From the human T2T-CHM13v2.0 reference genome, Homo sapiens: a DNA stretch of 64,000 bases. The notes under the pieces were generated by a model. The model was not told the origin of the DNA and searched no databases. It saw only the letters and a program-made list of their open reading frames with translations. The position numbers and the translations under genes are program-made. The DNA is taken from assembly GCF_009914755.1 (NCBI RefSeq), contig NC_060929.1, one strand, 5' to 3'. Below are positions 40,965 to 49,762 of the stretch, piece after piece; positions within the stretch are counted from its first letter, which is position 1; each line of letters opens with the position of its first letter.

Positions 40965-42075
40965 AGTTTATTTTTTAGCAAAGTTTCCAGTTTACAAAAA
41001 AATTGAGCAGAAAGTACAGAAAGTTCACATATACTTCCTCCCTGCCCTTAGTTTCCTCTACTGTTAACATCTTGCAATATATGGTATATTTGTTACAGCT
41101 GGTAAACAAATATAAAAATATTATTATTAACTAAGTCTACAGTTTACATTAGGGTTCACTCTTTGTGTTGTGCAATTCTATGGGTTTTGCCAAATGTATA
41201 ATGTCATGTACCCCCCATTACTCTGTCACACAGAATAGTGTCCATGCTTTAAAAATTCACTTTGCACCACTTACACATCCCTCCTCCCCATAACCCCACC
41301 CTGGTACCCACTAATCTATTTGCTGTCTTTATAGTTTTGCCTTTTTCATAATGTCATATAGTTGGAATCATATAGTATGTAGCCTTTTCACATTGGCTTC
41401 TTTCGCTTAGTGATATGCATTTAAGGTTCCTCCATGTCTCTTAATGGCTTGACATCTCATTTCTTTTTATCGATGAATAATATTCCATTGTATTGATGTA
41501 CCAAAATTTGTTTATACATTCACCTACTGAAGAACATTTTAGCTGCTTCCAAGTTTTGGCAGTTATGAATAACGCTGCTATAAACATTCCTGTGCAGGTT
41601 TTTGTACGGATGTAAGTTTTCAACTCATTTGGATAAATACCTACGAGTGCAATTGCTGGATTGTATGGTAAAACTATGTTTAGCTTTGTAAGATACTGCC
41701 AAACTGTCTTCCAAAGAGCCTGTACCATTTTGCATTCCTAACAGCAATGAATGAGAGTTGTTCCACATCCTTGCCAGAATTTGGTGTTGTATCTGTTTTG
41801 GATTTTAGCCATTCTAATAGGTGTGTAGTGTCATCTTGTTTTAGTTTGCATTTTCCTAATGACATGATGTTGAGCATCTTTTCATATGCTTATTTGCCAT
41901 CTGTGTATCCTCTTTGGTGAGGTGTCTGTTCAGATCTTTTATGAATTTTTAAATTGGGTTGTTTGTTTTCTTGTTGAATTTTAAGAGTTCTTTGTATATT
42001 TTGGATACAAGTTCTTTATCATATATGTGTTTTGCAAATAGTTTTTTCTTAGTTTGTGGCTTATCTTTTCATCCT
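40965..42075 (-). mobile_element. L1M (L1MC-like) 3' end with ORF2 C-terminal remnant
   Basis: ORF 41441..41728 LWKTVWQYLTKLNIVLPYNPAIALVGIYPNELKTY...WYINTMEYYSSIKRNE is the L1 ORF2 C-terminus; L1M 3'UTR motifs follow. Confidence 0.93.
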
Positions 42076-43459
42076 CTTTCTGATCATGCCTGTTTATTTA
42101 GCAATTCTACTTTTGAAATTTACCATCCAGATATAGTCGTGTACATATAAGAAATAATTAAGGAAATTTGCCATATAATGTTTTGTGGTAGCAAATGAAG
42201 AGAGAAAAAAATCCTAACTGTCCATCAATGAATAACTGGTTAAATTATGATACATGCACCAATGGAAAACTATTCCTCTAGTAGAAATAACAAGGTGTTT
42301 CTACATTTTCTAAATTGTTATAAAAGAGAATTTCTACATAGTATGACAAGGTTTTGAGTTATTTTTAACATGGAGGTATGTATGAAGTAGTTACTCTTTC
42401 ACCCTATTTAAAAGTTTTCAGTTTTTTAGAACAGAAAAAATAATAAAGATCAAGTTGTTAATGACAAGAAGGGACAAAGTTGGATTCTGAATGTCACTTT
42501 ACTTTTCTATAGATAGCTCATTTAGAAGGTATTTACTTTGGAAAAATAATACTAGATTGAAGTATAAGCTTTGCAGATCTGTTTCTGGAAGTAACTGTCT
42601 GCTATTGTGTAGCTATAGTTTAAGACTTACGGAAAAAGTTAATTATCTTGTATTTATCATTTCACTCCCAAATACATTATGTTTATTCACTCAAAGTAAT
42701 GTGCTCAGATGTTTATACAAACCATCTGCCTATATTCAAGATGACTAAGGAAAAAAAGAAGCTTTCCAAGATTCCTCTTGCTGGTGAGCAATTCTACAGT
42801 AAGATATAGAAAATGAATTATGAAGCAATTATGATAGCCTTTAAAATATAATCCCTCTCCCCCAAATTAAAATGGTTTAAAAAAACTTAATTCTGTACAG
42901 GGAAGCAAAAGTTATCATCTTTAGATAGGATTACTAACATGGGATCTACACTAATGTGATATATTCTGGATTTAACAAATTGTGGCATTTTTACATTTGT
43001 CTGGAATTCAAAATGGTCAATGTTGAAATTTGGCAATGTAAAACTCTATGAACTCTAAACATTTGATGAATTATTTCATATATTTTAAAAATGTATTTAA
43101 AATCTATACACTTATTATCATTGTCTAGAGAAGGTAGCCCACTTTCGGCTCATCACTGTAAAATATAGTTATTTGCATGCAGTCAATACTGGTTTCTTTA
43201 AAAGCATGCCTAGATTAAGAACCTCAGAAGAGTGCAGAGGGTCACAAGAATGCCAGCTGCTCAACAGCTTCCCCTACAGAGTTCTTTGTGGTTCATTTTA
43301 TACTTCTGGTTAGTTTCTACACTGCCGCTTTCTTTCATAGAGAGTAGAGGTTGGCAGTACTTCCCTGTGACATCCACTTTCACACCCAAATTGGTGTTCA
43401 TAGGTTCCCATTGTATGCACTACAAAGCAACTTGCCTTGTTGGCAGCTCTAAGTGGGAA

Positions 43460-44009
43460 CTACAAGTCTTTCTTTTCTTCACTGTTCTTTTTCTGGCTCA
43501 CAAGCAACCTCCCACCAAAAGCTGAATCTGTAGAAGAGACTACATCCAAGAGATAATACCATGAAAAAGTATGAAGAGAAACCCAGGTGGCCACCTTGCA
43601 AATTTCCAATGTGGAAGCCTTCGACCTCTCTGCCCAAGAAACAGCTAAAGTCCTAGTGTAATGAGCTTTACAAACCCTAGGAGCCTCTTTACCTTAACTA
43701 CATACGCCTCCCTAATACAATCCCTTAACCATCTAGCTAAGGAACTCTTAGAAGCCATTTGACCCCTCTTAAGACCCCCTAAGAGTACAAACAATCTTTC
43801 AGAAGATCTGAAATCTTTGATTCTTCTGAGACAAACCCTAAGTGTTCTTCTTACATCCAATTGAAGCAGCCATTGCTCTTTGTCATTGCTGGGGCTAAAG
43901 AAAAATGAGGGCCAAGAAGCCTCCTGGTTTAGATAAATCTCAGATGCCACCTTTGGAAAAATTGAGGAATTGCCCAAAGAACAACTTTATTCCAAAGAAG
44001 CATTAGAAA
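43460..44009 (-). mobile_element. Fossil DIRS1-like retrotransposon tyrosine recombinase (YR) fragment with two frameshifts
   Basis: Reconstructed peptide: FLMLLWNKVVLWAIPQF/PKVASEIYLNQEASWPSFF...LDVRRTLRVCLRRIKDFRSSERLFVLLGGLKRGQMASKSSLARWLRDCIREAYVVK/GKEAPRVCKAHYTRTLAVSWAERSKASTLEICKVATWVSLHTFSWYYLLDVVSSTDSAFGGRLL...stop. It follows the vertebrate DIRS1 YR pattern as I recall it (DKVVLR..FLPKVVS.FHLNQ...LDVRRAL..YL.RT..FR.S..LFV...RW....AY...AHSTR...SWA...EICRAATW...TF.RHY.LD...FG..VL). Confidence 0.85.
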
Positions 44010-46796
44010 TGCCCCATAAATCAAATCCACGGCCACTCCATAAGATATCATCACCTAATACAGTAAGGCACCACAACAGTCAAATAATGTCCTATCATTT
44101 TTTGAAGTGACAAAAATAGAAAACCATCGAATCATGACCAAACAAAAGCAAATAATGACAAAATATCTTTTCTTTCTCAGAAAATATTTATTGTATCTCT
44201 ACAAAATCTCTTGTCTACAATCAAATTACTGAGAGAACGGCCAATTTGGCTAAGTCTACAATATAATAGTAAACATCAAAGTAAAAAGTAAAATATTTGG
44301 TTAATCATTTTTATATTTTCTCTATGTGATGTTAAGTGTCTGGACATTTTTAAAAAATCTGCACAATGCAAAAAAAGTCCTCATTTTTCATCTGTTCATA
44401 TGTTTGGGTTACATAGACATCGTAGGCAACTCTTTCCAAGATCTTTATTAGCAAAATATGCTCCAATCAAAATAAACACGCAGGAAACCAAATGACTTCC
44501 TCTCTATTTTCCCCGCTATTCTCTTCCTCACCAGATTTCTAAGCAAAACATTAACTATCAGGAATACCCAATAGTTAAGATATAGTTGGCTTCCTTAATC
44601 ATCCATTTCAAGGAGTCTTTTCCTTCCTGATTTAAGAAACCAATGCTTTTGATAAGAATTGATTAACTTGGATACACTGAATAAAACATTTAAGATTTTT
44701 CTTGACAATTTCCCTCAAGATCATTCTTCTCAGGAATCTATTTACATAAAGCTGCGTCACATTAAATCAATCTTGGCTTTGTGACCAAAAAAATATGAAT
44801 TTCAACAAAGAAGACTACATATATCACAAGGAGACGTTCTAGTACTGAGACACTTCTTATACTTGCCCCTTGAAATTCCTTCTACATCCTGTGTTTGATA
44901 ATCCACAAATGTGTTCATATAGTTCACTATTATTAACATGATATTGAAGTTGCTTTTATCTGCCTTACTGCTTATAAGATGACACATTTGCAACAGTATA
45001 TTGTGGCAAATTATGTATTTGCTCTGTTGACTTTCATTCACAAATGGTAACCATTGCTCTCAAATATCCAGCATTTGCAAGTCTCCACATTGCCTCATCT
45101 TAATCTAATGGAATTGAATCACCTTTTTCAAAATTGTTATTTTCTCTAAAGTCAGCATGCCAAATCTATGCTTCAATTCTTGGCCATTTCAGTGTAACAT
45201 CTTTATAATACCTCCTAATGCAATTCTAATTTTGAATTTATGCTGACTTTAAGAAGAATAAAGTTCACAAAACTGACTTAATTCCCAAGAGTCTAGCCTA
45301 GGACTAATACAAGATGATTCAAAATGGGTAGAAGCCTAGATGTTTTGAAGTTCATTCTGTTTCTTGATGCATACCTCAGAAAAGGTCTGTTAGAGATGTA
45401 GATGAGAGATGACAAATCTTAGCCAGGCACGGTGGATGAGTACCAACTCCAATGTCAACTGTTCCAGGAACCAATATGTCAGTCAATAATTAGGATATCA
45501 TACTTCTCTATTCAGACCTCTGTTTGACCTCACAGTCAAACTCTATCTAAAAGACGTTTTAAGGGTCCCATTCTCTCCTAATTAAATCTTTGGCTTTTTT
45601 TTGGTTTTTTTGGGGGGGTTTTTTTTGGGGTTGGCTTCAGAAATCTATAGTCCATCTTTATTTTTTCTTCAAATTCTCTCCAAATTTGAAAAAGTAATCT
45701 ATGTTATTTATTTTATAATATAACAGTGTTACCTAAATTTCACCTGAAACAAAGAAGGCCAGTAAACTATGTTTAATGTAAAACAAAATCCAACCCTATA
45801 ACTTTTGTGACATTACTTACGTGGGCAAAGTAAGTAAAGGAATACAAGAGTAAACATAATAAGTGAAAATAATTTTACCAAGAGATCGGTTTTGGGGATT
45901 AAATTTTTCAGACTAATTGTTAATCACTTGCTTCCTTCACTTTTTTTTGCAGATGCAGCAAATATATATATATATATTTACACTCCTTAGAATGGCATAT
46001 GGTATCACGTAAAGGAGAACTTTGTATATTTCATTCTGAGGAAAATGAAAATTTTTATAAATATAGATATGATAACAGAGAACATACCTCAACCATTATA
46101 CCTTTGAATTTTACCTTTAATGTTGGAAATATTATTCAGTACACACAGCATGGCTTTTTTCAAAGGGGTTTTGTTAAGACTAAACTAAAAACAACATATT
46201 CCATAATTATAATTACTATTTTAACAACTCACATTTATTGATCGTTTATGATATACTAGACATTTTCTTAGGTATTTTATTTTCACTGTCATTTAATTCT
46301 CACAACCCTATATAACATTATAACATATCGAAATCTGAAGCATCTAATCCTGAAAGAAAACAAAGAGAAAATTAATGTAGTCCTACATCATTATTTTGAA
46401 GGTGAGAAAATTCAGGTCTAAGGAGACTATATGTTCTGCTCAAGATCATCTGGGTGCTAGGAGCAAAAGAAAAGATACTAGACCACCCAGTCTGCTTATT
46501 CTTTCCATAGGCTAGTTGTGTTTCTTTGAAAAGAAAAATTGACCTAATTTTAGCTAAAAATCATCCAGAATTGATGTATGATGCTTTGTCAATTAGAATT
46601 AAGGAACTTGCCAAGCATGAAGGATAAAAATGTGTGCATTTTTATATATAATGCATGGTGTGCATTATACCAAATGCTTATTTAAAGAATTCTTTCATGT
46701 GTGTTTTTTTCAAGTAATCGTTTTCATTCAAAGCAGCAGGAAGCAAAAACACAGAGAAATTATAGATTTACAAATTTAAACAAAAGAGGATATTAC

Positions 46797-46958
46797 CTGA
46801 AGTATCCCTGGTTATCTTGAGTGATAAAAGTATTTCGTCAAACAATTCTTGAACACCTTTTTCCAGTTTCATAAAGGATTTTATGAGCTGCGATAAGAAT
46901 TCGACTTTGTCTAAAGGGAGAGAGAAGTTTCTTCCTTTCTGTGGGCATTCAGTAGTAA
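46797..46958 (-). CDS. KIAA0825: KIAA0825 coding exon, 162 nt, phase 1-1 (VTTECPQKGRNFSLPLDKVEFLSQLIKSFMKLEKGVQELFDEILLSLKITRDTS)
   Basis: Acceptor ttttcttttcacAG, donor CAG|GTAATA, open frame, phase matches the next exon. Confidence 0.9.
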
Positions 46959-47269
46959 CTGTGAAAAGAAAAGATCAATACTGTCATACATTTTATTTAC
47001 CTTCTTAGTAAATATTAGAATGATCTGTGTGATTCCATAAACCATATAAAAACTAACAAGTTCCTCCATAATTAAACCAAATTAGTTCATTAAGAAATAC
47101 ATATAAAATCTCCTAGGAGTATCTTTTCTTCTGGGAAGCTGGAGATGAATATTCTGTTTCAGGCAAATATAGCAATTAAATAATTAGATCGATTCTCAGA
47201 GTTATAAATAGAAATTTGATTTCTTGTAAAATCACATCTTACGCAATTCTGCTTTTTTTTTTCGGTCTG

Positions 47270-47790
47270 GCATAACTTAAATCTAATGACAAGGAAATAT
47301 TACACAAACCCAAATTGAGGGACAGTCTACAAAATAACTAGTCTGTACTTTGTGAGGAAGTACAAAGGCCAGGAAATGACCTAGTCTAAAGGAGTCTAAA
47401 TAGACATTAAGTAAAACTGAAATTAATACATAATCAGCATTTGATTTTCATATAAAAGACATACTTGGGATAATTTGGTGAAATCTGACTGAAGTCTACT
47501 ATGCAATGCTATTACTGTATGACTTAATTTCCCGATTTATATAGCTGTATTGTGGTTAAGCAAGAGAATGTCTTTGTCTTTAGGAAATACACACTGAAAT
47601 ACATAAGAGTGTCTGCGGACTATTTTCAGTTCAAGAAAAAATAAAATTTTGCAAAGAAAGAGAGAGAGAGAGAAAGCAAAAGTGGAAATGTGGTCAGATA
47701 TTAACATTTGGGAAATTTGAATGTAAAGGAATTATTTGTATTATCCTGGCAACCTTTTTGTAAGTCTGAAATTAAAATAAACATTTTACA
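47270..47790 (+). mobile_element. L1MC/ME 3' UTR fragment
   Basis: aaacccaaattgagggacagtctacaaaataact...gaatgtctttgtctttaggaaatacacactgaaat...gcaacctttttgtaagtctgaaatt. Confidence 0.7.
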
Positions 47791-49762
47791 AAACACTATA
47801 TTAAAGATACACTCTTTAAGACCTTATAAGTGTTGTTCCTATCATTAAAAAAAGCAAATTAAGGTAGCTATTGAATCTAGGCTACATAATTCATGAAGTC
47901 ATGTTTAAAAATAACTTGTCTAAATAATTGTGATATCTATTATTTGCGTAAGAACAATACAACTTAAAGGTTGTTTTTTTGCCCTCTTATGATTACGCTA
48001 CTAGTAAAGTCACACTATCATTTTAATATGATAATAAAATCCCTTTATACTCTTTAAGAGTATGGAGAATAATTCACTTATTTCATGTTCTTAACTCCAA
48101 TTTGTTGCTTTCATTTTAGATTACATCACTAAATGGTCTTTTTGACCAAGTTTTAAAGGATTTAAAAGAATCCTATCTTTATTAATGCCTTTTATTAAAA
48201 CATATTTAAGAGATAGCTTGAAGCTTAATCATAAATTGGAAAATTTGTAAACTCCTACAAACTTAGCACAAAATGCCTTTGGAGACAAAATACAAGTGCT
48301 ATTCAAAAACTGTATAGGGTCTGACAATTCCATGGGACAAAAGATTACCTTCATCACATGGATGGTAGAAGGAAGATTCCAGAAATCTAACAATTTTATG
48401 GCTATTCCACTTCACTTCAGTGAAACTTTAAAATGTTAGCATCAAACTTGTAGTCCTATAATAGTCTTTCACTGAGGACCAAAAATGTCATGATCTCTTT
48501 GCAGGTACTATGAGAAAGAGCTGTCTACCAACTTAGACTGTAAAATTTAGTACTGTTCTGAAACAGTAAAAAGGTTTTAAAAAATCTGCAAGTAAATACA
48601 AAAACTCTGTTTCATCTCTAAGTTGACGTTAGCCCAATATACATGAAAATCTAACTCACATCTACTGTTCTTCTATGGGCATGTTAGAGAACACAAGTAT
48701 GTATAGGCAGCATATACAACTAAGGCTTTGCCAGAAATATTATGCCCCAAAATGAAAAGAGAACACACATATTATGTTTTATTTAGTTGGTACTTGATTC
48801 CCATTTGGTCTATTTGACTTATCTTAAGCTTTGCTTATGTAGATGAGTGGCTATTTTAACCTTCTAAACCTTAAATTTCCTTTTGGACCTAAAATGTTTA
48901 TAAACCAAATTTTCAAAGGCTTTAAGAATCCCTCCTAATTCTTTACTAGGAAAGGCCGCTCAATAGTTTCACTAGAAATTAAGCATGTTTAAGAAGTCTT
49001 TATCTGGCTCAATTCCAAATTGGAAGTCTTGTGAATGTTTATAAAGTAAGCAAAGAAACACCGCATGAAGAATCTTTAAGAGTCAAAATTATATAAGAGT
49101 GCTTGCTACTTGCTGACAATTATGCGAGGTCTGAGGATTCTAGATGAAAAGGTCTTACTTTCATGACCTGGATTTAGAAGAATCTTGTATTCCAGGAATA
49201 CAACAATCGTGAAAGGTAAATCTTCTTTTAATTCAGTGAATCTTTATAACTAAATAATGTAAGAGGACAGAATGAAATATATGACCTAAATCTAATCATT
49301 TTTTTGTCCCAACCAACCAATGATTATGGGAGCTGCCCATTAATTAGCAGTCCTTATTTCCTATTACTATCAGCTCAGTGTTCTCCCAAGGGGTATTGTA
49401 CAGGTTCTCAATTTATGGGGAAAATAATTCTGTGATAAATTCATTTTGTGAAAGGCCAATTAAAGCGAAATTAAGCACAAAGGATGAAGTAGCATTTCCC
49501 AAACTTATTTGACTTATTTTACCTCACAGTATCTCATAGGACTAGTGTCCTAATCATCACACCTTCACTCATGATTTCTATCTGCCTAAGCGTATGTTTC
49601 TCTGTCCCTTAAACTCTTATTGTTAACAAAATTAGGAAAGAGTTTCTCCCAGCAGAAATTCCTTTGACCATCTCCTTGGCTAAATTAATCTCCTTTCCGC
49701 ATTTTTCAGTATTATTTGTTTTCTCCTCCCCTCTAAGTTACCTCTCCAGAAAACATTATCTG

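What the first reader, a model, noticed from the sequence alone, without database searches (positions are those of the whole stretch)
43460..44009. DIRS1-type tyrosine-recombinase retrotransposon fossil in a human intron
SEEN: on the minus strand, three reading segments join across two 1-nt frameshifts (the T-run at ~43957-43961 and AAG/GT at ~43692) into ~180 codons with no internal stop, ending at TAG 43460-43462. Retained are H-x-x-R (HYTR, 43652-43663), the Trp of ATW (43583-43585) and the putative nucleophilic Tyr (43553-43555, in TFSWYYLLD). The N-terminal box I Arg is not recognisable. KNOWLEDGE: R..HxxR..H/W..Y is the tyrosine recombinase catalytic set. The surrounding blocks (KVVL..P.F.PKV.S...LNQ; LDVRR.L...L.R...FR.S.RLFV; S...LARW...CI..AY; SWAER..AS..EIC..ATW.S.HTF; LD......AFG) match my recollection of DIRS1 YRs from fish, amphibians and reptiles rather than phage integrases or Cryptons. 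DIRS retrotransposons are generally regarded as absent from mammals and birds, apart from possible rare relics. Two Trp codons (TGG) sit where Arg is expected, consistent with CpG decay (CGG>TGG) in a methylating host. INFERENCE: this is a genuine DIRS insertion, probably missed by nucleotide-level repeat annotation. I cannot confirm it is unreported.
Basis: partly seen in the sequence, partly recalled or inferred. Interest (0 to 1): 0.92.

Follow-up and report, generated by a model that had tools for sequence, protein, structure and literature searches.

The report
Conserved DIRS recombinase fossil in KIAA0825
A KIAA0825 intron holds the decayed tail end of a tyrosine-recombinase gene from an ancient DIRS-type retrotransposon; the relic is real and unusually well kept, but relics of this kind in the human genome are already in print.

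Summary
On the minus strand, frames B (43648-43986) and C (43463-43693) carry the C-terminal catalytic half of a retrotransposon tyrosine recombinase (YR).

- **Homology.** Piece C alone found 270 proteins at E<=1e-3 among 1.84 billion. Piece B, not used in that search, aligns collinearly just upstream in the same proteins. My profile gave E 4.8e-31 (B) and 2.2e-25 (C); the next best of 4618 window pieces scored 5.7.
- **Family.** Relatives carry RVT_1, RT_RNaseH, Phage_integrase and LAP2alpha (DIRS1 gag) domains, so the source was DIRS-type.
- **Residues.** Box I and all RT/RNase H are gone.
- **Weak point.** The third piece (A) adds about 10 codons and is not significant alone.
- **Copy number.** The locus is single-copy in this genome.
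- **Other genomes.** Twelve unnamed orthologous ORFs carry different frame breaks, so it is not coding.
- **Conservation.** The DIRS part differs from human several-fold less than its flanks (significant in 3 of 5 ORFs). This suggests DNA-level constraint, about 0.6.
- **Novelty.** Low. Yao & Frith 2021 reported DIRS at 20 human sites and Frith 2022 reported more. I could not check whether this locus is listed.

The parts
43959..43988 (-). Piece A: 10 codons (KVVLWAIPQF) that abut the start of piece B in the recombinase profile.
   Evidence: Aligns at profile positions 201-210 with -2.8 bits. Ranks 409 of 1121 pieces of like length. Positional support only.
43957..43961 (-). First frame break, in a T run between pieces A and B.
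   Evidence: Sequence. Frames A and B overlap at profile positions 208-210.
43681..43968 (-). Piece B: 96 codons of the recombinase catalytic domain upstream of box II.
   Evidence: Profile E 4.8e-31, positions 208-303. Collinear tblastn matches in proteins retrieved with piece C only. Keeps 22 of 27 family-conserved columns.
43692..43693 (-). Second frame break, between pieces B and C. It is shared by the closer orthologous ORFs and absent in P0159 and P0002.
   Evidence: Sequence. Frame changes found by frameshift-aware alignment. Protein sequences.
43493..43693 (-). Piece C: 67 codons holding box II (H-x-x-R), the Trp and the nucleophile Tyr.
   Evidence: 270 proteins at E<=1e-3. Profile E 2.2e-25, positions 300-366. 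Keeps 21 of 23 conserved columns.
43652..43663 (-). HYTR, the box II His-x-x-Arg.
   Evidence: H and R are invariant in the alignment of 72 relatives. Coordinates.
43583..43585 (-). Trp at the third His/Trp position.
   Evidence: The family has W in 96 of 97 rows at this column.
43553..43555 (-). Tyr at the nucleophile position.
   Evidence: Profile position 346. Nearly invariant Y in relatives.
43460..43492 (-). Tail of frame C and its TAG stop (43460-43462), beyond the family homology.
   Evidence: ORF list. The same tail closes the 175-aa ORF P0159.
43330..43960 (.). Block that differs least between human and the unnamed orthologous ORFs: the DIRS part plus about 130 nt past the stop. The limits were set after seeing the data.
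   Evidence: Identity by zone. BLASTP comparisons. Fisher tests.
43170..44100 (.). G+C-richer island (0.37-0.47, against 0.23-0.34 on both sides) that encloses the fossil. It may mark the extent of what is left of the element.
   Evidence: Composition in 100-nt windows.

Best explanation
**Origin.** A DIRS-type, tyrosine-recombinase-encoding retrotransposon once inserted in what is now a KIAA0825 intron, in the same orientation as the gene.

**What remains.** About 167 codons of the C-terminal catalytic half of its recombinase ORF are recognisable, followed by some 3' sequence. In the living element this domain cut and rejoined DNA through the Tyr, helped by His-x-x-Arg and Trp, to integrate the cDNA. 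That mechanism is established knowledge of the family and was not tested here.

**Present state.** The copy cannot make a recombinase:
- the N-terminal half with box I is gone;
- two frame breaks split the reading;
- no RT or RNase H is nearby.

**Inferred step (my odds about 0.6).** The piece is this legible because the DNA itself is under purifying selection as a non-coding element, most likely cis-regulatory. The rest of the element decayed beyond recognition.

I put the DIRS-YR origin alone at about 0.95.
For: **Shown: homology.**
- E-values and the independent collinear match of piece B.
- 43 of 50 family-conserved columns are kept, against a family median of 94%. 15 of 95 members keep no more than the human copy.
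- Catalytic H, R, W and Y are present.

**Shown: relatives are DIRS-type.**
- Pfam tally of 72 hits: Phage_integrase 24, RT_RNaseH 8, RVT_1 7, LAP2alpha 3.
- One relative is above Pfam's cut-off: P0034, 29.4 bits against 27.1.

**Shown: copy number.**
- Searching the genome with the window's own DNA and pieces found this place only.
- An intact relative's YR (P0052) finds this locus at E 4.9e-12 and 1.1e-10. Only one other match appeared, at E 0.46.

**Shown: not coding.**
- Frame changes relative to the human reading lie at different places in different orthologous ORFs: 43650, 43566, 43979, 43492 and 43695.
- Human-P0002 differences spread evenly over conserved and variable columns: 35/42, 24/32 and 41/55 identical.

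**For constraint: identity to human, DIRS part against outside.**

| ORF | DIRS part | Outside | p |
|---|---|---|---|
| P0154 | 109/114 | 16/26 | 1.5e-5 |
| P0001 | 83/86 | 104/131 | 2.2e-4 |
| P0137 | 82/86 | 77/94 | 5e-3 |

- BLASTP agrees: P0154 has 109/113 identical in piece B and 16/24 just upstream.
- At the common ancestor of human, P0159 and P0002, only 4 of 50 conserved columns were already lost.
- Frith 2022 describes such fossils as strongly conserved and exapted, often in large introns (passages).
Against: - Pfam does not match the three pieces directly, even at E<=10. PDB sequence searches gave nothing significant. A profile of relatives reaches Cre/Tre recombinases only at E 0.4-1.
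- No RT, RNase H, gag or terminal repeat is left at the locus, so DIRS membership rests on the relatives.
- Two of the 5 orthologous ORFs with flank coverage show no significant contrast: P0160 p 0.77, P0152 p 0.16.
- The orthologues are related to each other, so they are not independent tests.
- Their species are unknown, so neutral distance cannot be calibrated.
- Comparisons are at the amino-acid level in arbitrary frames.
- The block limits 43330-43960 were chosen after seeing the data.
- No RefSeq functional element is listed at this place in the hub table.
Confidence: 0.62

Rival explanations
1. Same DIRS recombinase fossil, but a neutral relic with no constraint. On this reading it is legible because it inserted late, in stem mammals or early placentals, and has simply not decayed far.
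For: - No stop in about 167 homologous codons, only two frame breaks, and no net in-frame indel against the profile.
- 86% of conserved columns are kept.
- The eutherian-only ZNF451 LAP2alpha exon suggests DIRS1-like elements persisted into early mammals (PMC4495291, passages).
- Two of 5 flank tests are not significant.
Against: - In the same contig-derived ORFs the flanks on both sides differ from human several-fold more than the DIRS part. A uniform neutral rate does not predict that.
- The YR homology stops exactly where the fast-evolving flank starts, at about 43960-43990.
Confidence: 0.3
2. A domesticated protein-coding remnant. The C-terminal recombinase domain was, or in some mammals still is, translated as part of a host protein, and it became a pseudogene in the human lineage.
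For: - P0159 is an open 175-codon frame across the whole fossil, ending at the same tail as human frame C. P0002 is open over 130 codons.
- The fossil lies in the same orientation as KIAA0825, 160-180 nt beyond the end of an alternative terminal exon (hub table).
- There is precedent in the DIRS gag exons of TMPO and ZNF451.
Against: - The open frames were selected for: only ORFs enter the protein library.
- Changes do not avoid the family-conserved columns.
- At least five different frame breaks occur among the orthologues.
- No annotated exon of the 35 transcripts covers it (hub table).
- Box I is missing, so no recombinase activity is possible.
Confidence: 0.05
3. A fragment of a Crypton DNA transposon or of a Crypton-derived (DUF3504) gene, not of a retrotransposon.
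For: The language-model look-up put a DUF3504 cluster first, with score 0.95 and 147 of 256 shared features. Other eukaryotic YR families followed: NDC10_II and DUF3435. This is a lead only.
Against: - No DUF3504 match for the pieces at E<=10.
- DUF3504 is not among the families matched by two or more of the 72 relatives, whereas RT, RNase H and LAP2alpha are.
- 147 shared features is under the 170 that the tool gives as typical of same-family hits.
Confidence: 0.03

Closest known systems
DIRS1-like retrotransposon tyrosine recombinases of fish, amphibians and reptiles (Piednoel et al. 2011, PMC3266345; passages read)
   Same: - About 41% median and up to 48% identity over 167 columns to the unnamed relatives.
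- Same conserved H-x-x-R, Trp and Tyr.
- The relatives have the recombinase catalytic domain at the C-terminal end after RT/RNase H, and some carry the LAP2alpha-like ORF1.
   Different: - Only the C-terminal half of one ORF is left.
- No RT/RNase H, methyltransferase-like domain, gag, inverted terminal repeats or internal complementary region can be seen.
- It is single-copy and frame-broken.
Human DIRS and Ngaro protein fossils of Yao & Frith 2021 (bioRxiv 10.1101/2021.01.25.428050) and Frith 2022 (PMC9004415); passages read
   Same: - Same kind of object: a DNA-to-protein-detectable relic of a YR retrotransposon in human.
- Those relics are often in large introns and described as strongly conserved or exapted.
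   Different: - None of the five DIRS rows I could read in the tables is on chromosome 5.
- The full lists are on GitHub, Zenodo and in supplements that I could not open, so I cannot say whether this locus is one of them.
LAP2alpha exons of TMPO and ZNF451 (Abascal et al. 2015, PMC4495291; passages read)
   Same: DIRS1-like sequence kept in mammals inside a host gene, in the same orientation as the gene.
   Different: - Those derive from ORF1 (gag), are translated, and are under protein-level purifying selection.
- This one derives from the recombinase ORF and is not coding in human.
Crypton-derived DUF3504 genes (Kojima & Jurka 2011, PMC3212892; search listing only)
   Same: A eukaryotic tyrosine-recombinase fold retained in vertebrate genomes.
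   Different: - Those come from DNA transposons and are intact genes.
- No DUF3504 match was found here.
Cre recombinase of phage P1 (mechanistic reference)
   Same: The profile of relatives aligns its AHSTR...W stretch to Cre/Tre GHSAR...W.
   Different: The match is not significant (E 0.4-1). It is a distant superfamily relation only.

Membership tests
Tyrosine recombinase superfamily (Pfam Phage_integrase PF00589) | Direct significant match of the fossil to the Pfam model | tested here: not met
   No Phage_integrase or DUF3504 match for pieces A, B or C at E<=10, nor for P0001 at E<=1.
Tyrosine recombinase superfamily (Pfam Phage_integrase PF00589) | Significant homology to proteins that match the model over the same residues | tested here: met
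   - 24 of 72 top relatives match PF00589 at E<=0.01.
- 12 of 21 near relatives match it at their C-terminal end, and P0034 is above the cut-off.
- The fossil matches the relatives' profile at E 4.8e-31 and 2.2e-25.
Tyrosine recombinase superfamily (Pfam Phage_integrase PF00589) | Box II His-x-x-Arg, third His/Trp, and nucleophile Tyr | tested here: met
   H 43661-43663, R 43652-43654, W 43583-43585 and Y 43553-43555, at columns that are invariant or nearly invariant in relatives.
Tyrosine recombinase superfamily (Pfam Phage_integrase PF00589) | Box I Arg and the N-terminal half of the catalytic domain | tested here: not met
   No piece upstream of about 43990 scores above noise against profile positions 1-200. 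The object is therefore a relic of a YR gene, not a YR.
DIRS order (YR retrotransposons) | Recombinase linked to RT and RNase H in one element | tested here: not met
   **At the locus.**
- No RT/RNase H family in 22 minus-strand ORF pieces from 42708 to 49243.
- No tblastn match outside the 43200-43999 bins in the whole window.

**In relatives.** RVT_1 in 7 and RT_RNaseH in 8 of 72. The origin is inferred from these.
DIRS order (YR retrotransposons) | Nearest homologues are retrotransposon recombinases, not Crypton, phage or host recombinases | tested here: met
   - Domain tally and single-protein tables.
- In the tree, the human and P0002 rows nest inside the family, with P0003, P0035, P0038 and P0056 nearest (SH-aLRT 88, quick search).
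DIRS1-like superfamily (as against Ngaro and PAT) | Methyltransferase-like domain, domain order, LAP2alpha-like ORF1 | tested here: inconclusive
   - LAP2alpha was found in 3 of 72 relatives, one of them P0057. That domain derives from DIRS1-like ORF1.
- P0057 sits in another sub-clade than the human row.
- The methyltransferase-like domain was not detectable with Pfam.
DIRS1-like superfamily (as against Ngaro and PAT) | Inverted terminal repeats and internal complementary region | not testable with these tools
   The copy is a single truncated one, and no labelled nucleotide reference was available.
Crypton / DUF3504 | Match to DUF3504 (PF12012) and no linked RT | tested here: not met
   No match at E<=10. 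The only pointer is the Atlas lead, 0.95 with 147 shared features.
Exapted conserved non-coding element | Divergence markedly below that of the flanks | tested here: inconclusive
   Significant in 3 of 5 orthologous ORFs with flank coverage; not significant in P0160 and P0152. The species are unknown and the rows are not independent.
Exapted conserved non-coding element | Deep phylogenetic retention and regulatory activity | not testable with these tools
   No other vertebrate genomes, conservation tracks or chromatin data were on hand.

The most novel reading that the evidence does not exclude
The recombinase fragment was taken over as a protein-coding piece in early mammals. It is still an open 175-codon frame in at least one other, unnamed species (P0159), and it was lost as a coding sequence only on the lineage to humans. 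That would be a second kind of DIRS domestication beside the LAP2alpha gag exons.
Probability: 0.05. Interest if true: 0.7.

Novelty: already known. Interest (0 to 1): 0.3.

Why it matters
The locus shows that a reader without tools can recognise a real, deeply diverged protein fossil.

It also appears to be the clearest recombinase-derived DIRS relic in this genome. One intact relative's YR, used as a query, found only this locus below E 0.1.

If the slow divergence holds up, it is one more case of a transposon coding sequence kept as non-coding functional DNA inside a large intron. That would fit the published picture that mammals lost active DIRS elements but kept exapted pieces.

It does not change the picture. 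DIRS relics in human are already in print.

Tried and rejected
- **Direct family searches.** Pfam on the three pieces and PDB sequence searches gave only noise. So did the weak THAP match of P0002, which is below the cut-off.
- **Rest of the element.** No RT, RNase H, gag or box I was found by Pfam on 22 ORF pieces, by tblastn with 150 relatives at E<=10, or with the profile. A by-eye alignment of frame 43990-44079 to the box I region got no profile support and was dropped.
- **Other DIRS relics in the genome.** A search with the full pol-YR protein P0049 was swamped by 27-31% identical RT matches, probably endogenous retroviruses. It says nothing about DIRS.
- **Alignment query on the own genome.** Not accepted, so a single protein was used instead.
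- **Crypton reading.** The Atlas DUF3504 lead was considered and set aside.
- **Young-insertion reading.** My first estimate, from the lack of stops and the kept columns, lost ground once the flanks proved far more diverged than the block.
- **Structured RNA.** No Rfam family in 42000-46500. Folding z-scores were 0.60 and -0.43.
- **Paper searches.** KIAA0825 with DIRS returned 0 papers. A 2023 review of human repeats mentions DIRS only in general terms.

Full report
**1. What is in the sequence**

On the minus strand there are three stop-free frames:
- A: 43929-44054, 41 aa.
- B: 43645-43986, 113 aa.
- C: 43460-43693, 77 aa, closed by TAG 43460-43462.

They overlap at a T run (43957-43961) and at 43692/43693.

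**2. Is it more than chance?**

Direct family searches failed. Pfam found no recombinase family in any piece at E<=10. PDB sequence searches gave noise.

A full HMMER scan of 1.84 billion representative proteins with piece C alone found 270 proteins at E<=1e-3, 8 of them at E<=1e-10. The best hit that is not a copy of the locus is P0003 (972 aa, E 1.5e-13, 57% identity), matched at its C-terminal end.

I then ran tblastn of the 150 listed hits against the whole window. It gave 272 HSPs at E<=1e-3, all on the minus strand in the 43200-43999 bins.

Piece B played no part in retrieving these proteins. It aligns to the residues immediately before the C match in the same proteins. For P0003, residues 792-880 go to 43959-43693 and residues 882-942 go to 43690-43508, with summed E 2.7e-32. 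This is an independent confirmation of the break at 43692/43693.

I built a profile from hits that had at least 300 residues upstream of the match. That was 97 of 147 hits with a C-end match; the near-copies P0001, P0002 and P0137 were left out. The profile scored B at E 4.8e-31 (positions 208-303) and C at E 2.2e-25 (300-366). The next best of 4618 six-frame pieces of the window had E 5.7.

Piece A aligns only as ten residues at positions 201-210. It scores -2.8 bits and ranks 409 of 1121 pieces of like length. It fits by position but proves nothing by itself.

Nothing upstream of about 43990 matches profile positions 1-200, so box I is not recognisable.

**3. What family**

Among 72 top hits, Pfam at E<=0.01 gave:

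| Family | Members |
|---|---|
| Phage_integrase | 24 |
| RT_RNaseH | 8 |
| RVT_1 | 7 |
| RT_RNaseH_2 | 6 |
| Integrase SAM-like domains | 5 and 4 |
| LAP2alpha | 3 |

Single members also carry unrelated host domains (KRAB zinc fingers, PI31 and others). I take those to be gene models that swallowed a transposon piece.

In single-protein tables the recombinase match lies at the C-terminal end after RT and RNase H:
- P0049 has RVT_1 at 173-333 and Phage_integrase at 841-1021.
- P0031 has RNase H at 354-470 and integrase at 832-928.

Twelve of 21 near relatives match Phage_integrase, and P0034 is above the curated cut-off.

The LAP2alpha domain derives from ORF1 of DIRS1-like elements (PMC4495291, passages). 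RT, RNase H and a tyrosine recombinase together define YR retrotransposons (PMC3266345, passages).

The fossil therefore descends from a DIRS-type element. DIRS1-like against Ngaro is only partly settled, because no labelled references were on hand.

A quick maximum-likelihood tree (97 rows, 167 columns; two gappy family rows dropped) nests the human row and P0002 inside the family. The pair has SH-aLRT 100. The nearest rows are P0003, P0035, P0038 and P0056 (SH-aLRT 88).

**4. State of preservation**

Of 50 columns that are at least 80% conserved in the family, the human copy keeps 43: B 22 of 27 and C 21 of 23. Intact family members keep a median of 94%, and 15 of 95 keep no more than the human copy.

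The catalytic residues are in place: His 43661-43663, Arg 43652-43654, Trp 43583-43585 and Tyr 43553-43555.

Trp codons at 43974-43976 and 43559-43561 sit where the family has mostly Arg or Lys.

The block has 2 CpG in 528 nt, observed/expected 0.09.

**5. Copy number and surroundings**

The window's own DNA and protein pieces find only this place in the 3.1-Gb assembly.

An intact relative's recombinase (P0052) finds this locus at E 4.9e-12 and 1.1e-10. Only one other place matched, at E 0.46 on contig 16. The tool scores only the best candidates, so these are lower bounds.

No RT, RNase H or gag remains in the window.

The fossil lies in a G+C-richer island, about 43170-44100, with G+C 0.37-0.47 against 0.23-0.34 outside.

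It has the orientation of KIAA0825. It starts 160-180 nt beyond the 3' end (44168) of an alternative terminal exon, whose AATAAA is at 44187-44192 (hub table).

**6. Orthologous copies and rate of change**

The protein libraries hold twelve unnamed ORFs that are copies of this locus from other sources: P0001, P0002, P0137 and P0152-P0160. Identity to human in the DIRS part runs from 126/128 down to 130/162 and 106/127. The segment is therefore not an assembly artefact.

Relative to the human reading, frame changes lie at different places in different ORFs: 43650, 43566, 43979, 43492 and 43695. No reading frame is being kept.

The two most diverged ORFs, P0159 (175 aa) and P0002 (130 aa), read B and C in one frame. 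The break at 43692/43693 therefore arose on the lineage to human. These open frames are selected for, because only ORFs enter the library.

Human-P0002 differences are spread evenly over conserved and variable columns: 35/42, 24/32 and 41/55 identical. Only 4 of 50 conserved columns are lost in all of human, P0159 and P0002.

The unexpected result is that the DIRS part is far more alike between human and these ORFs than the sequence on either side, within the same ORFs:

| ORF | DIRS part | Outside | Fisher p |
|---|---|---|---|
| P0154 | 109/114 | 16/26 (upstream) | 1.5e-5 |
| P0001 | 83/86 | 104/131 (downstream) | 2.2e-4 |
| P0137 | 82/86 | 77/94 | 5e-3 |
| P0160 | 80/87 | 54/60 | 0.77 |
| P0152 | 29/32 | 51/66 | 0.16 |

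BLASTP confirms the pattern:
- P0154 has 109/113 identical in piece B, with three of the four differences in the first nine residues, and 16/24 just upstream.
- P0001 has 23/32 identical in 43172-43273.

High identity continues to about 43330, some 130 nt past the stop. The block limits are post hoc.

The rows are related to one another, their species are unknown, and the comparison is at the amino-acid level in arbitrary frames. I therefore rate DNA-level constraint at about 0.6, not as shown.

It would explain two things:
- why the fossil has no stop and so few breaks;
- why the recombinase homology ends abruptly where the fast-evolving flank begins.

No Rfam family and no folding signal (z 0.60 and -0.43) point to a structured RNA. 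A cis-regulatory role is the default guess and is untested.

**7. What is known**

Older surveys found no DIRS in 37 mammals (PMC3266345). Kojima 2018 allowed only the LAP2alpha-type exons of TMPO and ZNF451 (PMC5753468).

Later work changed this:
- Frith 2022 lists five tetrapod-age DIRS fossils (near ERC2, NFIB, MLLT3, RSU1 and WWOX) and 37 further pre-amniote ones. None of those 37 had been annotated by RepeatMasker. The paper describes such fossils as strongly conserved, exapted and often in large introns (PMC9004415, passages).
- Its tables also list a tetrapod-age CR1 fossil in an MCTP1 intron on chromosome 5.

None of the rows I could read is this locus. A full-text search for KIAA0825 with DIRS found no paper.

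This locus matches DIRS proteins at E near 1e-30. A genome-wide DNA-to-protein scan against RepeatMasker's transposon proteins should therefore have caught it. I treat the finding as already known in kind and probably in instance.

**8. Verdict**

The copy is dead as a gene.

It is probably kept as conserved non-coding DNA (about 0.6). The rival is a neutral, late relic (about 0.3).

Novelty is low and interest is modest.

Noticed in passing
window 44168-44192, minus strand: AATAAA at 44187-44192 lies about 19 nt before the annotated 3' end (44168) of the alternative terminal exon 44168-46349 of KIAA0825. The DIRS fossil starts 160-180 nt further on, on the same strand.
   Followed up: partly
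window 43170-44100: An island of higher G+C (0.37-0.47, against 0.23-0.34 on both sides) is wider than the recognisable recombinase part. It may outline what is left of the element.
   Followed up: partly
L006 = G000:C16:59890898-59894257 (match 59892398-59892757, +): This was the only other place in the genome matched by the intact relative's recombinase P0052. The match is marginal: E 0.46, 26% identity, 3 TGA inside. It could be another far-decayed YR relic or chance.
   Followed up: no
P0159 (unnamed source): An orthologous copy reads as one open frame of 175 codons across the whole fossil, ending with the same tail as human frame C. The cluster has 42 member sequences.
   Followed up: partly
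P0013, P0019, P0059, P0077 (unnamed relatives): Some library proteins join the DIRS recombinase stretch to host domains: PI31/F-box, KRAB zinc fingers, SH3 and zona pellucida. They look like gene models that absorbed transposon pieces.
   Followed up: no
hg38 chr5:94,809,895 (outside the window; from PMC9004415): Frith 2022 lists a tetrapod-age CR1 protein fossil in an MCTP1 intron on chromosome 5. I did not work out how far it lies from this window.
   Followed up: no
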